A DNA stretch of 64,000 bases from the sequence record MH571750.1, one strand, 5' to 3'. Each line of letters starts with the position of its first letter. The stretch's first letter is position 1. The notes below the pieces were generated by a model. That model had not been told where the DNA came from. It ran no database searches and was given only the letters and a program-made list of their open reading frames with translations. Both the position numbers and the translations under genes were made by a program. Source of the DNA: Escherichia phage vB_EcoM-Ro111lw. Below are positions 10,867-16,535 of the stretch, one piece after another.

Positions 10867-10943
10867 CTCTGTTTAGCTCAGCTTGGTAGAGCGTTCCGTT
10901 TGGGGCGGTAAGGCCGGAGGTTCAAGTCCTCCAACAGAGACCA
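10867..10943 (+). tRNA. tRNA-Pro (anticodon UGG)
   Basis: Acceptor CTCTGTT/AACAGAG, D-arm TAGCTCAGCTTGGTAGAGC, anticodon loop TTTGGGG, T-arm GGAGG-TTCAAGT-CCTCC, CCA encoded. Confidence 0.8.
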
Positions 10944-10950
10944 AATTAAT

Positions 10951-11028
10951 GTTCCAGTAGACAAAATGGTAAAGTCACCACTCTTTCAAAGTGGATATCT
11001 GAGGGTTCAAATCCCTTCTGGAACGCCA
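10951..11028 (+). tRNA. tRNA-Glu (anticodon UUC)
   Basis: Acceptor GTTCCAG/CTGGAAC, anticodon stem CCACT/AGTGG with loop CTTTCAA, T-loop TTCAAAT, CCA encoded. Confidence 0.75.
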
Positions 11029-11035
11029 GTTTTGA

Positions 11036-11108
11036 CAGAAGACCAATTACAGCAAACTTAATCTTATTCATCTGACACGAAATCGGACAAAGAAGAGATT
11101 TGGTCTGG
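11036..11108 (+). ncRNA. Repeated hairpin element A1 (5' CAGAAGACCAA..CAGCAA ... TTGGTCTGG 3'); candidate Y-RNA-like small RNA
   Basis: 5' AGACCAA pairs with 3' TTGGTCT; shares the CAGAAGACC-N-CAGCAA head and GGTCTGG tail with three other copies. Confidence 0.4.
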
Positions 11109-11119
11109 TCATTAAGAAT

Positions 11120-11196
11120 TGCGGGTATAGAGAAAGGGCGTCTCACATGTCTCATTAGCATGGTATCGGCAGGTTCGACTCCTGCACCCGCCTCCA
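11120..11196 (+). tRNA. tRNA-Met/Ile2 (anticodon CAU), non-canonical geometry (1-72 mismatch or extra connector nucleotide)
   Basis: Anticodon stem CATGT/GCATG with loop CTCATTA; T-arm GCAGG-TTCGACT-CCTGC; acceptor 3' ACCCGCC + T + CCA; D-stem GAGA/TCTC. Confidence 0.55.
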
Positions 11197-11202
11197 ATTT
11201 TG

Positions 11203-11261
11203 CAGAAGACCGTATTCAGCAACAAAATACTTTTGCGGATAAAAGAAAAAACACGGTCTGG
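11203..11261 (+). ncRNA. Repeated hairpin element A2 (CAGAAGACCGT..CAGCAA ... ACGGTCTGG)
   Basis: 5' AGACCGT pairs with 3' ACGGTCT; compensatory change relative to A1/A3. Confidence 0.4.
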
Positions 11262-11272
11262 TAATGTATTAA

Positions 11273-11349
11273 GGTTAGGAAGCACATAAGGTATGTGCGG
11301 TCGCCTGTTAAGCGAATGGCACAGGGTTCGAATCCCTGACTAACCGCCA
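11273..11349 (+). tRNA. tRNA-Asn (anticodon GUU)
   Basis: Acceptor GGTTAGG/ACTAACC, D-stem GCAC/GTGC, anticodon stem TCGC/GCGA loop CTGTTAA, T-arm CAGGG-TTCGAAT-CCCTG, CCA. Confidence 0.8.
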
Positions 11350-11357
11350 AATTAAAT

Positions 11358-11445
11358 GTGTCGTTATCCCGTAGATGGTAGCGGTGGGGACTGTAAATCC
11401 CTTGTCATTGAGACTCGGTAGGTTCGACTCCTACACGGCACACCA
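11358..11445 (+). tRNA. tRNA-Tyr (anticodon GUA), long variable arm
   Basis: Acceptor GTGTCGT/ACGGCAC, anticodon loop CTGTAAA, about 13-nt variable arm, T-arm GTAGG-TTCGACT-CCTAC, CCA. Confidence 0.8.
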
Positions 11446-11450
11446 ATAAA

Positions 11451-11527
11451 GGCTATGTAGTTTAACTGGAGAAAATACTCCCCTGTCACGGGAGATGATG
11501 TGAGTTCAAGTCTCATCGTAGCCGCCA
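11451..11527 (+). tRNA. tRNA-Asp (anticodon GUC)
   Basis: Acceptor GGCTATG/CGTAGCC, anticodon stem CTCCC/GGGAG loop CTGTCAC, T-loop TTCAAGT, CCA. Confidence 0.8.
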
Positions 11528-11550
11528 ATTTTGAGAGGGCTATTTAGCCC

Positions 11551-11585
11551 CTCCCTTAAAGAGTTCTTACGAGTATTCTTTAAAG
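11551..11585 (+). promoter_or_regulatory. Near-palindromic hairpin carrying the conserved 10-mer TTCTTACGAG (copy 1)
   Basis: ccttaaagagttcttacgagtattctttaaagg; second copy with the same 10-mer at 15421-15450. Confidence 0.35.
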
Positions 11586-11588
11586 GAG

Positions 11589-14620: not shown

Positions 14621-15174
14621 GATACTTAAAGTATGCTTCATGGATTTTCTTAGCTTTGTTAGAGCCATTTGCAGCAATCTTAGCAGTTATCTTAGCACCT
14701 TTTGTAGTTCCATTCTACAGTGAGAAGAAAGGACACTTACCTTTCGGGTTCAGATGGATGGAGACATATGACAACCCAATTGATGGTGATGAAGGTCACG
14801 TTAAAAGATGGGCTAATATTAGATGGATTGGTAAACTAGGCGTCTACATGCAAAGAGTTGGATGGCTCTGGAGAAACAAAGCTTATAACTTCTCTTACCA
14901 TGTATTAGGAAGAGATGTAAAAGATGTTACTAAGTGGAAAGGTAATATCAACGTAAGTTCTAACCCTGAAGATAATCAGACTGGTTATCTCCTAATGTGG
15001 AACAGTAATGCTTGGGGATTATTCGCTTTTATCCCATCAATTAAAGTCTTCGGTAAACAGTTTTACTGGAGAATTTATGTTGGATGGAAACTTAAAAGTG
15101 TTGTCCCAGAAGAAAGAGCATTCTCAAGGGAAAGAGTTATGTTGGCATTCTTTATTCATCCACTGAGAAAGTAA
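14617..15174 (+). CDS. Hypothetical protein (185 aa) with N-terminal transmembrane helix, embedded in the tRNA array
   Basis: ORF track; N-terminal WIFLALLEPFAAILAVILAPFVV hydrophobic segment; Trp-rich. Confidence 0.5.
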   Translation: MRYLKYASWIFLALLEPFAAILAVILAPFVVPFYSEKKGHLPFGFRWMETYDNPIDGDEGHVKRWANIRWIGKLGVYMQRVGWLWRNKAYNFSYHVLGRDVKDVTKWKGNINVSSNPEDNQTGYLLMWNSNAWGLFAFIPSIKVFGKQFYWRIYVGWKLKSVVPEERAFSRERVMLAFFIHPLRK

Positions 15175-15182
15175 AGATTTAA

Positions 15183-15258
15183 AGGGGATTAGTTTACAAG
15201 GTTAAAACCTCGGTCTTTGAAATCGAAGAAGTTGGTTCAATTCCAACATCCCCCGCCA
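15183..15258 (+). tRNA. tRNA-Gln (anticodon UUG)
   Basis: Acceptor AGGGGAT/ATCCCCC (1-72 mismatch), D-stem GTTT/AAAC, anticodon stem TCGGT/ATCGA loop CTTTGAA, T-arm GTTGG-TTCAATT-CCAAC, CCA. Confidence 0.75.
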
Positions 15259-15260
15259 AT

Positions 15261-15339
15261 GCTCCATTACTCCAATTGGCAGAGAGGCCAGACTTAAAAT
15301 CTGTGTTATGTATCGGTTCGAATCCGATATGGAGTACCA
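15261..15339 (+). tRNA. tRNA with Leu anticodon UAA and short variable loop; tRNA-Leu(UAA), atypical class I-like
   Basis: Acceptor GCTCCAT/ATGGAGT, anticodon stem CAGA/TCTG loop CTTAAAA, T-arm ATCGG-TTCGAAT-CCGAT, A73, CCA; 79 nt. Confidence 0.55.
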
Positions 15340-15344
15340 AATTT

Positions 15345-15420
15345 AGCGGTATAGCATAACTGGCAATGCAGCAGTCTCTGAAGCTGTCCTATTAAGGTTC
15401 AAATCCTTATGCCGCTGCCA
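15345..15420 (+). tRNA. tRNA-Gln (anticodon CUG)
   Basis: Acceptor AGCGGTA/TGCCGCT, anticodon stem GCAGT/GCTGT loop CTCTGAA, T-loop TTCAAAT, CCA. Confidence 0.7.
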
Positions 15421-15450
15421 CTTCTAAGGATTCTTACGAGAGTCCTTAAA
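15421..15450 (+). promoter_or_regulatory. Hairpin carrying the conserved 10-mer TTCTTACGAG (copy 2)
   Basis: cttctaaggattcttacgagagtccttaaa; same 10-mer as at 11560. Confidence 0.35.
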
Positions 15451-15451
15451 T

Positions 15452-15527
15452 GTGGCCTTATCATAAATGGTAATGACCCATGCTGTGAACATGGTCTATA
15501 CGGGTTCAAATCCCGTAGGTCACCCCA
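15452..15527 (+). tRNA. tRNA-His (anticodon GUG)
   Basis: Acceptor GTGGCCT/AGGTCAC, anticodon stem CCATG/CATGG loop CTGTGAA, T-arm ACGGG-TTCAAAT-CCCGT, C73, CCA. Confidence 0.8.
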
Positions 15528-15532
15528 ATTTA

Positions 15533-15609
15533 TAGTCCAAGTAGCTTATATGGTTAAAGCGCGTGTCTGAAAAACATGAGAAGAGGGTTCAAATCCCACT
15601 GGACTACCA
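15533..15609 (+). tRNA. tRNA-Phe (anticodon GAA); 3' end ambiguous (CCA directly follows the acceptor stem)
   Basis: Acceptor TAGTCCA/TGGACTA, anticodon stem CGTGT/ACATG loop CTGAAAA, T-loop TTCAAAT. Confidence 0.7.
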
Positions 15610-15625
15610 ATTTCAAAGGTGCTTA

Positions 15626-16360
15626 ATGAAAGAGATGACAGAACAAGGTAAGGAGATTTTCAATCTCTTAAAAACCGGTAAAGGGTTTTCTAACCCCCTT
15701 ATTACTGGTGCAGCAGTTCTCGGTGGAACCGTAGCTGCCTCTACATCACTTGTAAGCTCTATTAGCTCTGTATCAGACCCTACAGTAAAGGATAAGCTTG
15801 TTGCTGCTGGACTTACAACAGTTCTGCTTAACAGCTTTACCACGAGTCTGACAAGCACTACATCAACTACCAAAACACTAACAGATTACGGTCAAAAGTC
15901 CATTGATGAGTTTTCATCACGTATGCAGGTAGCAAAAGGTTACTCTAATGTTATGGGTGCAGCAGGTGAACAAGTTGGCTGTACACCATTTAGTGGTATT
16001 ATGGGTGTTGCTACAGAGTATGGTCAAAAAGCTATTGATACGATTAACAGTGCACTAGATAGTGTTAATGGTGTGTTAAGTGACTTACAAGATGCTATTG
16101 ACAAAGGTCTTGATACTATTTCTGATTTAGCTGAGCAAGCTGTTAGTAAGATTAATGAAGGTATTTCAAAAATTACAGCTTATGCAGATGAAGTTGTGCA
16201 GATGATTGAAGAAGAAGCTGCTCTTATTGCAGAGTACCTTAAAACGAATATCAATGGGTTCTTAGCAGGTATCTTACCAGACTGGTTTGATGATGCTTGT
16301 AAAACTGGTGTAATTGACACTATTGCAACACCAGAAATGAAGAACGCATTACAGAAATAA
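15626..16360 (+). CDS. Hypothetical Ser/Thr-rich protein (244 aa) embedded in the tRNA array; start trimmed from ORF-track 15563
   Basis: ORF-track start at 15563 lies inside tRNA-Phe; internal ATG at 15626 is preceded by AAAGGTG. Confidence 0.5.
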   Translation: MKEMTEQGKEIFNLLKTGKGFSNPLITGAAVLGGTVAASTSLVSSISSVSDPTVKDKLVAAGLTTVLLNSFTTSLTSTTSTTKTLTDYGQKSIDEFSSRMQVAKGYSNVMGAAGEQVGCTPFSGIMGVATEYGQKAIDTINSALDSVNGVLSDLQDAIDKGLDTISDLAEQAVSKINEGISKITAYADEVVQMIEEEAALIAEYLKTNINGFLAGILPDWFDDACKTGVIDTIATPEMKNALQK

Positions 16361-16362
16361 AT

Positions 16363-16455
16363 GGAAGATTAACCCTAAAAGGTAAGGGAGCAGTTTGCTA
16401 AACTGCCAGTAGCTGAGAAATCGGTGTACCAGTTCAAGTCTGGTATCTTCCTCCA
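16363..16455 (+). tRNA. tRNA-Ser (anticodon GCU), long variable arm
   Basis: Perfect acceptor GGAAGAT/ATCTTCC, anticodon stem GCAGT/ACTGC loop TTGCTAA, long variable arm, T-arm ACCAG-TTCAAGT-CTGGT, CCA. Confidence 0.8.
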
Positions 16456-16459
16456 ATTT

Positions 16460-16535
16460 GAATCCGTGACAGAAATGGCTATGTGCCTGTCTGCAAAACA
16501 GGTTTATAAGGGTTCGAGTCCCTTCGGATTCTCCA
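16460..16535 (+). tRNA. tRNA-Cys (anticodon GCA)
   Basis: Perfect acceptor GAATCCG/CGGATTC, anticodon stem CCTGT/ACAGG loop CTGCAAA, T-arm AAGGG-TTCGAGT-CCCTT, CCA. Confidence 0.8.

What the first reader, a model, noticed from the sequence alone, without database searches (positions are those of the whole stretch)
10867..16535. Large tRNA array (about 27 genes) covering all 20 amino acids, interrupted by protein genes, a homing endonuclease and structured RNAs
By hand-folding I find Pro, Glu, Met x2, Asn, Tyr, Asp, Lys x2, Ile, Arg x2, Trp, Ser x2, Leu x3, Ala, Gly, Thr, Val, Gln x2, His, Phe and Cys. A complete isotype set in a phage is consistent with compensating codon-usage mismatch and/or bypassing host tRNA-cleaving defence systems.
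Basis: partly seen in the sequence, partly recalled or inferred. Interest (0 to 1): 0.5.

Follow-up and report, generated by a model that had tools for sequence, protein, structure and literature searches.

The report
Phage tRNA array with Y-RNA-like partners
This is the well-known transfer-RNA gene cluster of a Felix O1-type phage, but four small RNAs interleaved with it share a conserved "handle" found next to a Ro60-like protein gene in many phages, which looks like an undescribed kind of Y RNA.

Summary
ARAGORN finds 26 tRNA genes at 10867-16535, all on the + strand and none elsewhere in the 64 kb. The 27th, at 12758-12840, is a conserved, non-canonical tRNA-Trp-like gene that the tools do not call.

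The window is a Felixounavirus (94-99% identical to Felix O1 relatives), whose tRNA cluster was published in 2010, so the array itself is already known. Codon compensation is supported: in 4- and 6-fold codon families the phage tRNAs match codons enriched in the phage (p=0.004). Escape from tRNA nucleases is plausible but unproven.

The spacer RNAs are the new part. Four elements (11032-11114, 11199-11267, 11585-11668, 11672-11813) share a 7-bp covarying stem followed by UWCAGCAA. The fourth carries a YrlA-type tRNA-like domain. The ORF just upstream (9286-10701, DUF2828/DUF7788) has a Ro60 fold.

A covariance model of the handle hits 44 of 75 distant phage loci that encode this protein. Every hit is on the protein's strand, most lie within 1 kb of the gene, and 20 of those loci have no tRNAs. 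It hits neither T5 nor a related Erwinia phage that lacks the protein.

I read these as Y-RNA-like partners of a phage Ro60 homologue. Binding has not been tested.

The parts
9286..10701 (+). Ro60-like protein gene (DUF2828 + DUF7788; PHROG 850 'RNA-binding protein'), immediately upstream of the array
   Evidence: Pfam. PHROG. AlphaFold model with pLDDT 88. The top 12 Foldseek PDB hits are all Ro60/TROVE, E 6e-8 to 3e-6, TM up to 0.65. The MIDAS residues D279-x-S281-x-S283, T349 and D381 are invariant in 40 homologues.
10720..10840 (+). Two sigma-70-like promoter matches (10720-10748 and 10811-10840) ahead of the first tRNA
   Evidence: 10 of 12 matches each. These are consensus matches only.
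10867..11028 (+). tRNA-Pro(UGG) 10867-10943 and tRNA-Glu(UUC) 10951-11028
11032..11114 (+). Handle RNA E1: stem 11040-11046 / 11100-11106, UUACAGCAA motif, simple apical hairpin
   Evidence: Model R1, 47.1 bits, E 1e-6. Fold.
11120..11196 (+). Atypical tRNA-Met(CAU), with a U1.C72 mismatch and U37, lying between E1 and E2
   Evidence: Found by ARAGORN but below the Rfam gathering score. Anticodon stem-loop.
11199..11267 (+). Handle RNA E2: stem 11207-11213 / 11253-11259
   Evidence: R1, 49 bits, E 4.5e-7.
11273..11527 (+). tRNA-Asn(GUU) 11273-11349, tRNA-Tyr(GUA) 11358-11445, tRNA-Asp(GUC) 11451-11527
11585..11668 (+). Handle RNA E3: stem 11593-11599 / 11654-11660
   Evidence: R1, 35.3 bits, E 5e-4.
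11672..11813 (+). Handle RNA E4, with a YrlA-type permuted tRNA-like domain. In order: V hairpin, T arm (11732-11748), 7-bp closed acceptor-like hairpin, D arm. Handle stem 11680-11687 / 11798-11805.
   Evidence: R1, 35.3 bits. Folds. Partial match to the Rfam tRNA model, 22.9 bits. The acceptor hairpin covaries in Michonne and SUSP2.
11808..11954 (+). 147-nt structured spacer closed by a ~24-bp stem
   Evidence: z = -5.4. Present or absent among close relatives.
11955..12262 (+). tRNA-Lys(UUU) 11955-12030, tRNA-Met(CAU) 12109-12185, tRNA-Ile(GAU) 12187-12262
12278..12306 (+). Internal promoter-like site, TTGACA-17-TATAGT (11 of 12 matches)
12538..12614 (+). tRNA-Arg(UCU)
   Evidence: Felix O1 and EcoM2 carry a different allele at this position.
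12758..12840 (+). Non-canonical tRNA-Trp-like gene (anticodon CCA at 12798-12800, A1-U72, G73, encoded CCA end, enlarged D region)
   Evidence: Not called by ARAGORN here or in any relative.
12854..13523 (+). tRNA-Ser(UGA) 12854-12943, Leu(UAG) 13200-13277, Lys(CUU) 13285-13360, Ala(UGC) 13367-13442, Gly(UCC) 13449-13523, with a structured 256-nt spacer at 12944-13199
13538..13951 (+). HNH homing-endonuclease ORF (137 aa)
   Evidence: PHROG 2255, E 5e-41. Pfam HNH 17.4 bits, below the cut-off. Present at this site in Felix O1 and EcoM2, absent in Michonne and SUSP2.
13953..14360 (+). tRNA-Thr(UGU) 13953-14029, Val(UAC) 14126-14200, Leu(CAA) 14202-14279, Arg(ACG) 14285-14360, with a structured spacer at 14030-14125
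   Evidence: spacer z = -3.8.
14378..15174 (+). Two ORFs: 80 aa (PHROG 14202) and 185 aa (DUF7338, hydrophobic N-terminus read from the translation, annotated 'holin' in EcoM2)
15183..15609 (+). tRNA-Gln(UUG), Leu(UAA), Gln(CUG), His(GUG), Phe(GAA)
15626..16360 (+). DUF7217 protein (244 aa), at the position of Felix O1 ORF49
   Evidence: Gp49 is listed among the virion proteins in PMC3185647. Equating the two numberings is an inference.
16363..16535 (+). tRNA-Ser(GCU) 16363-16455 and tRNA-Cys(GCA) 16460-16535
16574..16715 (+). Terminator-like hairpins after the last tRNA: GCCCTG...CAGGGC followed by a T-run at about 16574-16640 (read from the sequence), and 16698-16715 followed by a T-run

Best explanation
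The region is the Felix O1-type tRNA gene cluster. It holds 26 canonical tRNA genes and one non-canonical tRNA-Trp-like gene on one strand. They are probably transcribed from host-type promoters at about 10720/10811 and 12278, and transcription probably ends at hairpins after tRNA-Cys.

The tRNAs are only 57-72% identical to E. coli isoacceptors, and 25 of 26 encode their own CCA end. The set is rich in NNA-reading species that match the AT-rich codon usage of the phage. Their most likely job is therefore to give the phage a nearly host-independent decoding set tuned to its own genes. A secondary benefit arises when host tRNAs are depleted or cut.

Four Y-RNA-like RNAs (E1-E4) are interleaved with the first six tRNAs. 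They share a conserved handle: a 7-bp stem whose 5' strand is followed by UWCAGCAA and whose 3' strand ends in CUG. E4 carries a tRNA-like domain with YrlA topology.

I infer that processing of the flanking tRNAs releases these RNAs from the tRNA precursor. I also infer that they bind the Ro60-like protein encoded immediately upstream, whose counterpart in phage Bas63, gp130, counters the Ppl defence system. The resulting particle would act on RNA, for example in quality control of the phage's unusual tRNAs, in recruiting a host exonuclease, or as a tRNA decoy.

The HNH gene is a mobile homing endonuclease. The other ORFs are ordinary phage genes embedded in the array.

Shown here: the tRNA genes, the codon match, the Ro60 fold, the conserved covarying handle, and its genomic linkage to the protein. 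Inferred: expression, processing, binding and function.
For: tRNAs. The relatives have the same syntenic set.

Identity of the phage.

Codon match.

CCA ends and divergence from the host.

Promoter and terminator matches.

Ro60 fold.

Handle in the window: four copies and nowhere else in 64 kb. The same architecture occurs with compensatory changes in Yersinia phage P778, where GGACU/AGUCC and GGAUU/AAUCC replace AGACC/GGUCU.

Handle as a family: 131 stems of at least 7 bp against 20 in a reversed-target control. Covariation is 98-99% paired, with 103 and 119 double-change cells against 28 and 34 in shuffles.

Model R1: 87 hits with E<=1 in 1.08 Mb searched on both strands, all on the strand of the Ro60-like gene. 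Of 61 hits with E<0.01, 44 lie within 1 kb of the gene and none inside it. Of 75 divergent loci, 44 have a hit, and 20 of these have no tRNA in the locus.

Controls: no hits in the T5 tRNA region or in Erwinia phage Omen, which has the array but no Ro60-like gene.

tRNA-like domains: the V-T-AS-D order is as defined for YrlA, and similar domains recur in many loci.

Literature: Bas63 gp130 is Ro60-like, lies directly upstream of the tRNAs and counters Ppl (PMC11482910). A phage Ro60 binds phage Y-like RNAs (PMC12135203).
Against: There are no expression, processing or binding data for E1-E4.

The known Ro60-binding motifs (GNCGAAN0-1G / CGAA) are absent, and no Rfam Y RNA or YrlA family matches even at E<=10.

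The protein has no Pfam TROVE hit and no sequence-level match in the PDB.

gp130 expressed alone from a plasmid rescued T7 on the Ppl strain, so its anti-defence activity does not need the phage RNAs.

Orthology of the window's ORF with gp130 is inferred from synteny and genus, not from an alignment.

The training instances for R1 were picked by requiring a perfect 7-mer complement, and alignment A5 is fitted to the model. This inflates the percentage paired, but not the strand or position statistics.

31 of the 75 divergent loci gave no R1 hit at E<0.01.

Bas63 tRNAs were mostly non-essential on laboratory strains.
Confidence: 0.7

Rival explanations
1. The main selective reason for the near-complete tRNA set is to replace host tRNAs that defence nucleases cut (PARIS AriB, PrrC, retron-associated PtuAB and others), not to match codons.
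For: The AriB site U36AAUC|A41 is changed in all three known target isoacceptors: Lys(UUU) has U41, Thr(UGU) has G39 and G40, and Asn(GUU) has G39 and G41 (site and effects of mutations in PMC12409363). The set covers 19-20 amino acids, including 2-fold families where codon choice gives no reason to carry a tRNA. The array adjoins a gene whose Bas63 counterpart is an anti-defence factor. Dispensability on laboratory strains fits a conditional role.
Against: 10 of 19 anticodon loops are identical to the host's, including Lys(UUU) and Tyr(GUA). The Sf14 study of a related phage argued against this hypothesis. No cleavage or infection data exist for this genus. The codon match is statistically supported.
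Confidence: 0.3
2. E1-E4 are only processing or spacer hairpins (RNase III or RNase E sites) or decayed tRNA remnants of the array, with no link to the Ro60-like protein.
For: They sit between tRNAs and abut tRNA ends within 3-12 nt. E4 contains tRNA pieces. Other long hairpins without the handle also occur in the spacers. T5 has stable RNAs of unknown function in its tRNA region and no Ro60-like gene is known there. gp130 works without them.
Against: The handle follows the protein gene, not the tRNAs. Twenty loci have handle RNAs beside the gene and no tRNA within the locus. The T5 and Omen arrays have none. The conserved unpaired UWCAGCAA beside a covarying stem is typical of a protein-binding site. 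Decayed remnants would not keep the stem paired across phages whose Ro60-like protein is only about 40% identical to the window's.
Confidence: 0.2
3. The Trp-like element is a pseudogene or a non-decoding tRNA-like RNA, so the phage covers 19 amino acids, not 20.
For: ARAGORN misses it in the window and in five relatives. Its best Rfam score is 23 bits. It has about 8 extra nt before a 3-bp D stem, and C31.A39 and A49.C65 mismatches (sequence). The related phage Sf14 is published as encoding '26 tRNAs, 19 amino acids'.
Against: The TrpRS identity elements I know for E. coli (anticodon CCA, G73, A1-U72) and an encoded CCA end are all present. Compensatory changes keep the anticodon, D and acceptor stems paired in Michonne, P778 and L012. 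The CGG-CCUCCAAAA-CCG anticodon arm is shared with the tRNA-Trp of Erwinia phage Omen, which the tools do call.
Confidence: 0.35
4. The phage destroys the host genome and tRNA supply, so late translation must run on phage tRNAs alone (the 'all-destructive' model). Codon tuning would then be a by-product.
For: The set is near-complete and encodes its own CCA ends. The Sf14 study found late-gene tRNA adaptation highest with the phage pool alone.
Against: No host-degradation data exist for this phage. The tRNAs are mostly non-essential in Bas63 on four strains. tRNAs reading several common phage codons are missing as cognates, for example GGU, GUU, ACU and CCU (also noted in PMC3185647).
Confidence: 0.25

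Closest known systems
tRNA gene cluster of Salmonella phage Felix O1 and other Ounavirinae (Whichard et al. 2010, PMC3185647; Sf14 study, PMC12482277)
   Same: Same genus-level sequence (94-99% identity), same gene order, same position between the Ro60-like gene and the large terminase, and HNH genes inside the array.
   Different: The window has 26 tool-called tRNAs against 22 published for Felix O1 (25 with ARAGORN). It carries only one HNH gene against three in Felix O1, a canonical Arg(UCU) allele, and an extra 80-aa ORF.
Phage T5 tRNA region
   Same: A large one-strand tRNA array interrupted by HNH endonucleases, small ORFs and annotated stable RNAs of unknown function, some of them 'tRNA-like'. 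T5 Lys, Thr and Asn tRNAs neutralise PARIS.
   Different: The sequences are unrelated. The handle model has no match in 20 kb of T5. No Ro60-like gene is annotated there.
Bacterial Ro60 (Rsr) with YrlA/YrlB Y RNAs (Chen et al. 2014, PMC4201824)
   Same: Non-coding RNAs encoded beside a Ro60-fold protein and on its strand. There are several per locus. One has a tRNA-like domain in the order V, T, closed acceptor-like stem, D, and the RNA's ends form a stem.
   Different: The protein belongs to DUF2828/DUF7788, not Pfam TROVE. The conserved RNA motif is UWCAGCAA beside a 7-bp stem, not GNCGAAN0-1G. There is no Rfam match. The RNAs are embedded in a tRNA array.
Thermus phage phiLo Ro60 with Yrl1 and Yrl2 (PMC12135203)
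   Same: A phage-encoded Ro60 homologue with phage-encoded Y-like RNAs next to the gene. Its structure (9l5y) is among the top fold matches.
   Different: The phiLo RNAs carry the CGAA motif and lie upstream of the gene. phiLo has experimental binding data and a solved structure; this locus has neither.
Bas63 gp130 (PhageMaP preprint, PMC11482910)
   Same: A Felixounavirus protein with structural similarity to Ro60, directly upstream of the tRNA stretch. The authors guessed that Y RNAs hide among the annotated tRNAs.
   Different: The preprint names no RNA. The candidates found here are not the annotated tRNAs but four unannotated spacer elements. Orthology to the window's ORF was not checked by alignment.

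Membership tests
Phage tRNA gene cluster (Felixounavirus type) | Many same-strand tRNA genes recognised by tRNA predictors | tested here: met
   26 by ARAGORN. 24 pass the Rfam gathering score.
Phage tRNA gene cluster (Felixounavirus type) | Synteny and sequence identity with the Felix O1 cluster | tested here: met
   94-99% identity over 8 kb. The tRNA order is the same in Felix O1, EcoM2, Michonne and SUSP2.
Phage tRNA gene cluster (Felixounavirus type) | The tRNAs are expressed, processed and charged | not testable with these tools
   Only promoter-like and terminator-like matches and encoded CCA ends.
Complete 20-isotype tRNA set | A functional tRNA for every amino acid, including Trp | tested here: inconclusive
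   19 isotypes are called by the tools. The Trp-like gene at 12758-12840 has the identity elements and covariation, but the predictors fail on it.
Ro60 / TROVE protein | Pfam TROVE domain (sequence level) | tested here: not met
   Only DUF2828 and DUF7788 match. There is no PDB match by sequence.
Ro60 / TROVE protein | Helical-repeat ring plus a C-terminal vWA domain with a MIDAS site (fold level) | tested here: met
   The top 12 Foldseek hits are Ro60/TROVE over about 513-572 alignment columns. D-x-S-x-S, T and D are invariant.
Y RNA / YrlA | Encoded next to a Ro60 homologue and on its strand | tested here: met
   E1-E4 start 331-971 nt downstream of the gene's end. All 87 family hits are on the gene's strand.
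Y RNA / YrlA | tRNA-like domain in the order V, T, acceptor-like stem-loop, D | tested here: met
   E4 and at least 10 homologues fold this way. The definition is from Chen 2014, section 6.
Y RNA / YrlA | Conserved Ro60-binding motif GNCGAAN0-1G / CGAA near the 5' end | tested here: not met
   The conserved motif is UWCAGCAA after a 7-bp stem. The window's CAGAAG only resembles CGAAG.
Y RNA / YrlA | Match to a curated Rfam Y-RNA-type family | tested here: not met
   No such hit at E<=10 on E4, or at E<=5 on 10600-16800.
Y RNA / YrlA | Physical binding to the Ro60 homologue | not testable with these tools
   Needs pull-down and sequencing, or gel-shift assays.
Nuclease-resistant phage tRNAs (T5 tRNA-Lys type) | Substitutions at the nuclease's cleavage site relative to the host tRNA | tested here: met
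   Positions 39-41 differ from the host in Lys(UUU) and Thr(UGU), and from the published host site in Asn(GUU).
Nuclease-resistant phage tRNAs (T5 tRNA-Lys type) | Resistance to cleavage and rescue of infection | not testable with these tools
For T5, sequence outside the cleavage site also matters.
HNH homing endonuclease | HNH nuclease domain | tested here: met
   PHROG 2255, E 5e-41. The Pfam HNH score of 17.4 bits is below the 21.4 cut-off.
HNH homing endonuclease | Present or absent at the same site among close relatives | tested here: met
   Present between Gly and Thr in the window, Felix O1 and EcoM2. In Michonne and SUSP2, Gly is followed directly by Thr.

The most novel reading that the evidence does not exclude
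E1-E4 belong to a large, undescribed family of phage Y-like RNAs. A universal handle (a 7-bp stem plus UWCAGCAA) would dock exchangeable cargo domains, often a tRNA mimic whose anticodon arm is replaced by the handle, onto a DUF2828-type Ro60 homologue. In Felix O1-like phages these RNAs would be cut out of the tRNA precursor by the tRNA-processing enzymes. The particle would take part in anti-defence or in surveillance of the phage's own unusual tRNAs.
Probability: 0.5. Interest if true: 0.75.

Novelty: new variant of a known kind. Interest (0 to 1): 0.55.

Why it matters
The tRNA array itself adds little. It is a textbook feature of Felix O1-like phages, and its codon logic has been published.

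The value lies in the spacers. They give concrete, testable candidates for the RNA partners of a phage Ro60-like protein that a preprint reports to counter a bacterial defence system. They also suggest that the large DUF2828 protein family, found in thousands of phage sequences (2717 homologues scored with E<=1e-5), has its own class of Y RNA with a recognisable sequence signature.

If this holds, it would extend Ro60/Y-RNA biology to many phages. It would offer a simple motif for annotating these RNAs. It would also link tRNA arrays, tRNA mimicry and anti-defence within one locus.

Tried and rejected
1. A sequence search of the Ro60-like protein against the PDB found nothing useful. Only the fold search showed the Ro60 relationship.

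2. Rfam at permissive thresholds found no Y RNA, YrlA or other family for the spacers. The weak tmRNA, miRNA and plastid-UTR hits are below gathering scores, and I treat them as chance or as tRNA antisense.

3. I considered an alternative pairing in which GGTCTGG lies upstream and CAGAAGACC downstream of a tRNA, so that the stem would enclose tRNAs. I rejected it because it leaves orphan half-sites and one pair would span three tRNAs. In other phages the same handle closes hairpins with no tRNA nearby.

4. The spacer at 14030-14125 begins with a handle-like GAAGACCGTAACAAA, but it lacks UWCAGCAA and the 3' partner, and model R1 does not hit it. I treat it as a possible decayed copy.

5. NCBIfam gave no names for the ORFs.

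6. Literature searches for DUF2828 and for Felixounavirus transcriptomes were unproductive. The supplementary tables of Chen 2014 are not held, so I could not check whether any Felix O1-like phage was among their 22 phages. Their search was limited to genomes annotated with TROVE proteins.

7. MAFFT could not align the acceptor and D regions of the tRNA-like handle RNAs well enough for pair counting. I used per-sequence folds instead.

Full report
WHAT THE WINDOW IS. An 8-kb stretch around the finding is 94-97% identical to Salmonella phage Felix O1, Escherichia phage EcoM2 and more than 200 other Felixounavirus genomes. The best hit for a 1.4-kb sub-stretch reaches 98.8%. In these genomes the region lies between a gene annotated 'RNA-binding protein' and the large terminase subunit, and it is annotated as a run of tRNA genes.

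THE OBSERVATION. ARAGORN finds 26 tRNA genes, all on the + strand, from 10867 to 16535, and none elsewhere in the 64 kb. Rfam's tRNA model passes its gathering score for 24 of them. Met 11120-11196 and Tyr 11358-11445 fall below it, in line with the low or 'pseudo' tRNAscan scores reported for Felix O1. Relatives in three genera have the same syntenic set, with 25 ARAGORN calls each in the four Ounavirinae loci examined. The array is real and far beyond chance.

THE TWENTIETH ISOTYPE.
No tool calls it, either here or in Felix O1, EcoM2, Michonne, SUSP2 or Yersinia phage P778. The best Rfam score is 23 bits.
- Read from the sequence, it has a perfect 7-bp acceptor stem (ATGGGAC/GTCCCAT) with A1-U72, then G73 and an encoded CCA end. 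It has a CUCCAAA anticodon loop on a stem with a C31.A39 mismatch, and a T arm. About 8 extra nucleotides precede a 3-bp D stem.
- Anticodon CCA, G73 and A1-U72 are the identity elements of E. coli tRNA-Trp. This is from my own knowledge and was not tested here.
- The element is conserved with compensatory changes. The anticodon stem is AACGG/CCGUU here, GUAAG/CUUAC in Michonne and GUAGG/CCUAC in P778. The D stem is CUC/GAG or CAC/GUG. A distant metagenomic phage (L012) keeps A1-U72, G73 and CCA with a small D arm.
- The CGG-CCUCCAAAA-CCG arm also occurs in the tRNA-Trp of Erwinia phage Omen, which the tools do call.
- I put the chance that it is a working tRNA-Trp at about 0.65. The published count for the related phage Sf14 is '26 tRNAs, 19 amino acids'.

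ANATOMY OF THE ARRAY.
- Sigma-70-like promoter matches lie at 10720-10748, 10811-10840 and 12278-12306, the last with 11 of 12 matches. Terminator-like hairpins follow tRNA-Cys.
- The HNH ORF at 13538-13951 matches PHROG 2255 (E 5e-41). It is present between Gly and Thr in the window, Felix O1 and EcoM2, and absent in Michonne and SUSP2, which carry HNH genes elsewhere or not at all. This is the behaviour of a homing endonuclease.
- The other embedded ORFs are an 80-aa protein (PHROG 14202) that is absent from Felix O1 and EcoM2, DUF7338 (annotated 'holin' in EcoM2), and DUF7217. The last sits at the position of Felix O1 ORF49, and Gp49 is listed among the virion proteins.

PROPERTIES OF THE tRNAs.
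- 25 of 26 encode CCA.
- They are only 57-72% identical to the E. coli K-12 isoacceptors I fetched, so they are not recent captures from the host.
- Phage GC3 is 0.32 against 0.56 in a 50-kb E. coli sample.
- In 4- and 6-fold codon families, the Watson-Crick cognate codons of the phage tRNAs are enriched in the phage. The mean log2 RSCU ratio is +1.07 against -0.58 for the others (p=0.0036). AGA, CUA, UUA, CCA, UCA, ACA and GCA are the clearest cases. This supports codon compensation, as proposed for Felix O1 in 2010.
- The 2-fold families, where there is no choice of isoacceptor, are also covered. Codon tuning alone therefore does not explain the completeness of the set.
- On nuclease escape, 10 of 19 anticodon loops equal the host's, and the differences are mostly at positions 32 and 38.
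- AriB of PARIS cuts E. coli Lys(UUU) and Thr(UGU) at U36AAUC|A41, and Asn(GUU) at UAAUC|C. U39A abolishes cleavage and A41C inhibits it. The phage versions read UAAUCU (Lys), UAAGGA (Thr) and UAAGCG (Asn). The site is altered in all three, which is suggestive only, because sequence outside the site also matters.
- The Sf14 study argued against nuclease escape. Bas63 tRNAs were mostly dispensable on four laboratory strains.

THE STRUCTURED RNAs IN THE WINDOW.
- The spacers among the first six tRNAs contain four copies of cAGAAGACC-NNN-UWCAGCAA, each followed 40-110 nt later by GGUCUGG.
- Each copy folds as a 4-bp outer helix (which covaries among the four copies), an AGA/G internal loop and a 7-8-bp inner helix.
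- In E1-E3 the apical part is a simple hairpin. In E4 it holds a small hairpin, a canonical T arm (GAAGG-UUCGAUU-CCUUC), a 7-bp hairpin in the place of a closed acceptor stem, then U-G and a D arm with GG.
- That order, V, T, acceptor-like stem-loop, D, is the one that defines the tRNA-like domain of bacterial YrlA Y RNAs.
- The acceptor-like hairpin covaries completely. It is ACUCGGC/GUCGAGU here and ACCCUUC/GAAGGGU in Michonne.

THE PROTEIN UPSTREAM. The ORF at 9286-10701 has only DUF2828 and DUF7788 in Pfam and no sequence-level match in the PDB. An AlphaFold model built on 40 homologues (pLDDT 88) has Ro60/TROVE structures as its top 12 Foldseek hits. These are Xenopus Ro60, Deinococcus Rsr and Thermus phage phiLo Ro60, with E from 6e-8 to 3e-6, full-length alignments and TM up to 0.65. 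Isolated vWA domains follow. The MIDAS residues are invariant.

THE HANDLE IS A FAMILY THAT FOLLOWS THE PROTEIN.
- In Yersinia phage P778, whose protein is 53% identical, the same architecture recurs three times with compensatory changes: GGACU/AGUCC and GGAUU/AAUCC in place of AGACC/GGUCU.
- I fetched 80 viral contigs encoding homologues. Five are Felix O1-like, and the other 75 have proteins 39-48% identical to the window's.
- In these, UWCAGCAA preceded by a 7-nt strand with a perfect downstream complement is common. There are 131 stems of at least 7 bp, against 20 in a reversed-target control.
- In an alignment of 38 short instances, the stem is 98.9% paired, with 103 double-change cells against 28 in shuffles and about 22 or fewer when the partner is slid.
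- A covariance model (R1) gave 87 hits with E<=1 in 1.08 Mb searched on both strands. All are on the strand of the Ro60-like gene, and 49 of them were not in the training set.
- Of 61 hits with E<0.01, 44 lie within 1 kb of the gene and none inside it.
- The window has exactly four hits, E1 to E4.
- 44 of the 75 divergent loci have a hit, and 20 of those have no tRNA in the locus.
- The T5 tRNA region and Erwinia phage Omen give no hit. Omen is an Ounavirinae phage with a 27-tRNA array but no Ro60-like gene.
- Apical domains vary. Many are permuted tRNA mimics with canonical D arms such as UAGCUCAGUUGGUUAGAGC.
- Separately, 30 of the 75 loci have tRNAs within 7 kb. All 228 of these tRNAs are on the gene's strand. 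The protein, the handle RNAs and tRNA arrays therefore tend to travel together.

HOW IT MOST LIKELY WORKS.
- Shown: the genes, the folds, the conservation and the linkage.
- Inferred: the array is transcribed as long precursors and host tRNA-processing enzymes release the tRNAs.
- E1 and E2 begin 3-4 nt after one tRNA and end 5-6 nt before the next. The same cuts would therefore release them too.
- The handle is the docking site for the Ro60-like protein.
- The resulting particle acts on RNA. It might check the phage's unusual, less stable tRNAs, recruit a host exonuclease as in the Ro60/Y RNA/PNPase complex, or present a tRNA mimic as a decoy.
- A preprint on the Felixounavirus Bas63 reports that gp130 is Ro60-like by structure, lies directly upstream of the tRNAs and counters the Ppl defence system. 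Its authors guessed that some annotated tRNAs might be Y RNAs.
- My candidates are unannotated spacer elements instead.
- gp130 alone rescued T7 on the Ppl strain, so that activity does not require the phage RNAs.

COMPARISON AND NOVELTY.
- The array is already known. Its mix of tRNAs, HNH genes and odd stable RNAs parallels T5.
- The Ro60 similarity of the protein has been noted in one preprint.
- I found no description of the handle motif, its family-wide covariation or its linkage to DUF2828 genes, either in Rfam 15 or in the searchable literature.
- It works like a Y RNA system. It fails two membership tests, the binding motif and the Rfam models, and the protein fails Pfam TROVE. I therefore file it as a new variant, not as a member.

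CAVEATS. There are no expression or binding data. The R1 training instances were chosen for perfect pairing, and alignment A5 is fitted to the model. 31 of 75 loci had no confident hit. Orthology to gp130 rests on genus and synteny. The host codon sample is 34 genes.

Noticed in passing
window 11808-11954: A 147-nt element between E4 and tRNA-Lys is closed by a ~24-bp near-perfect stem around a branched core (z = -5.4). BLAST coverage of several close relatives stops near 11822, so it may be a present-or-absent insertion.
   Followed up: partly
window 12944-13199 (long hairpin about 13105-13199): The spacer after tRNA-Ser(UGA) folds well beyond shuffles (z = -3.6) and ends in a hairpin of about 30 bp. 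This could be an RNase III-type processing site. A 65-aa ORF annotated here in Felix O1 (ORF46) is probably spurious.
   Followed up: partly
window 14030-14125: Structured spacer (z = -3.8) that starts with GAAGACCGUAACAAA. This resembles the handle's 5' half, but it lacks UWCAGCAA and the 3' partner, so it may be a decayed handle copy.
   Followed up: partly
window 13200-13277, 14202-14279, 15261-15339: All three tRNA-Leu genes are 78-79 nt with a short variable loop. The E. coli tRNA-Leu genes are 85-87 nt with a long variable arm. These are class-I-like Leu tRNAs with A73.
   Followed up: no
window 11120-11196: The tRNA-Met between E1 and E2 is atypical. It has a U1.C72 mismatch and U at position 37 (loop CUCAUUA), and it scores below the Rfam gathering score. 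Its identity (initiator-like, elongator or other) is unclear.
   Followed up: partly
L001 4598-4700 and L002 4040-4145 (equivalent to window 12538-12614): Felix O1 and EcoM2 carry a different allele at the Arg(UCU) slot. It is a tRNA-like gene with anticodon UCU and an extra stretch of about 18 nt in the variable region, and ARAGORN does not call it. In Felix O1 an HNH gene abuts it.
   Followed up: partly
L094 (phage T5, 30284-33949 and 40848-41566 in the record): The T5 annotation lists eight stable RNAs of unknown function inside its tRNA region, three of them called tRNA-like. None matches the handle model.
   Followed up: partly
L013 6268-6378, L014 3125-3240, L018 141-288, L021 1257-1381: Some handle RNAs carry a different conserved apical domain (CCUUUCUGGAGGGGAAAGCAAAAACUCGCC) that is not tRNA-like. 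This may be a second cargo class.
   Followed up: no
L045 6726-6841: One handle RNA seems to enclose a tRNA-like sequence in the normal order (D arm, anticodon-like arm, T arm) and not the permuted order.
   Followed up: no
window 14378-14620: An 80-aa ORF (PHROG 14202) lies between tRNA-Arg(ACG) and the DUF7338 gene. In Felix O1 and EcoM2 those two are only about 18 nt apart, so this ORF is an insertion or deletion polymorphism.
   Followed up: partly
window 15626-16360: A gene at the position of Felix O1 ORF49, reported as a virion protein by proteomics, sits inside the tRNA array. It has weak PHROG similarity to tape-measure-like proteins.
   Followed up: no
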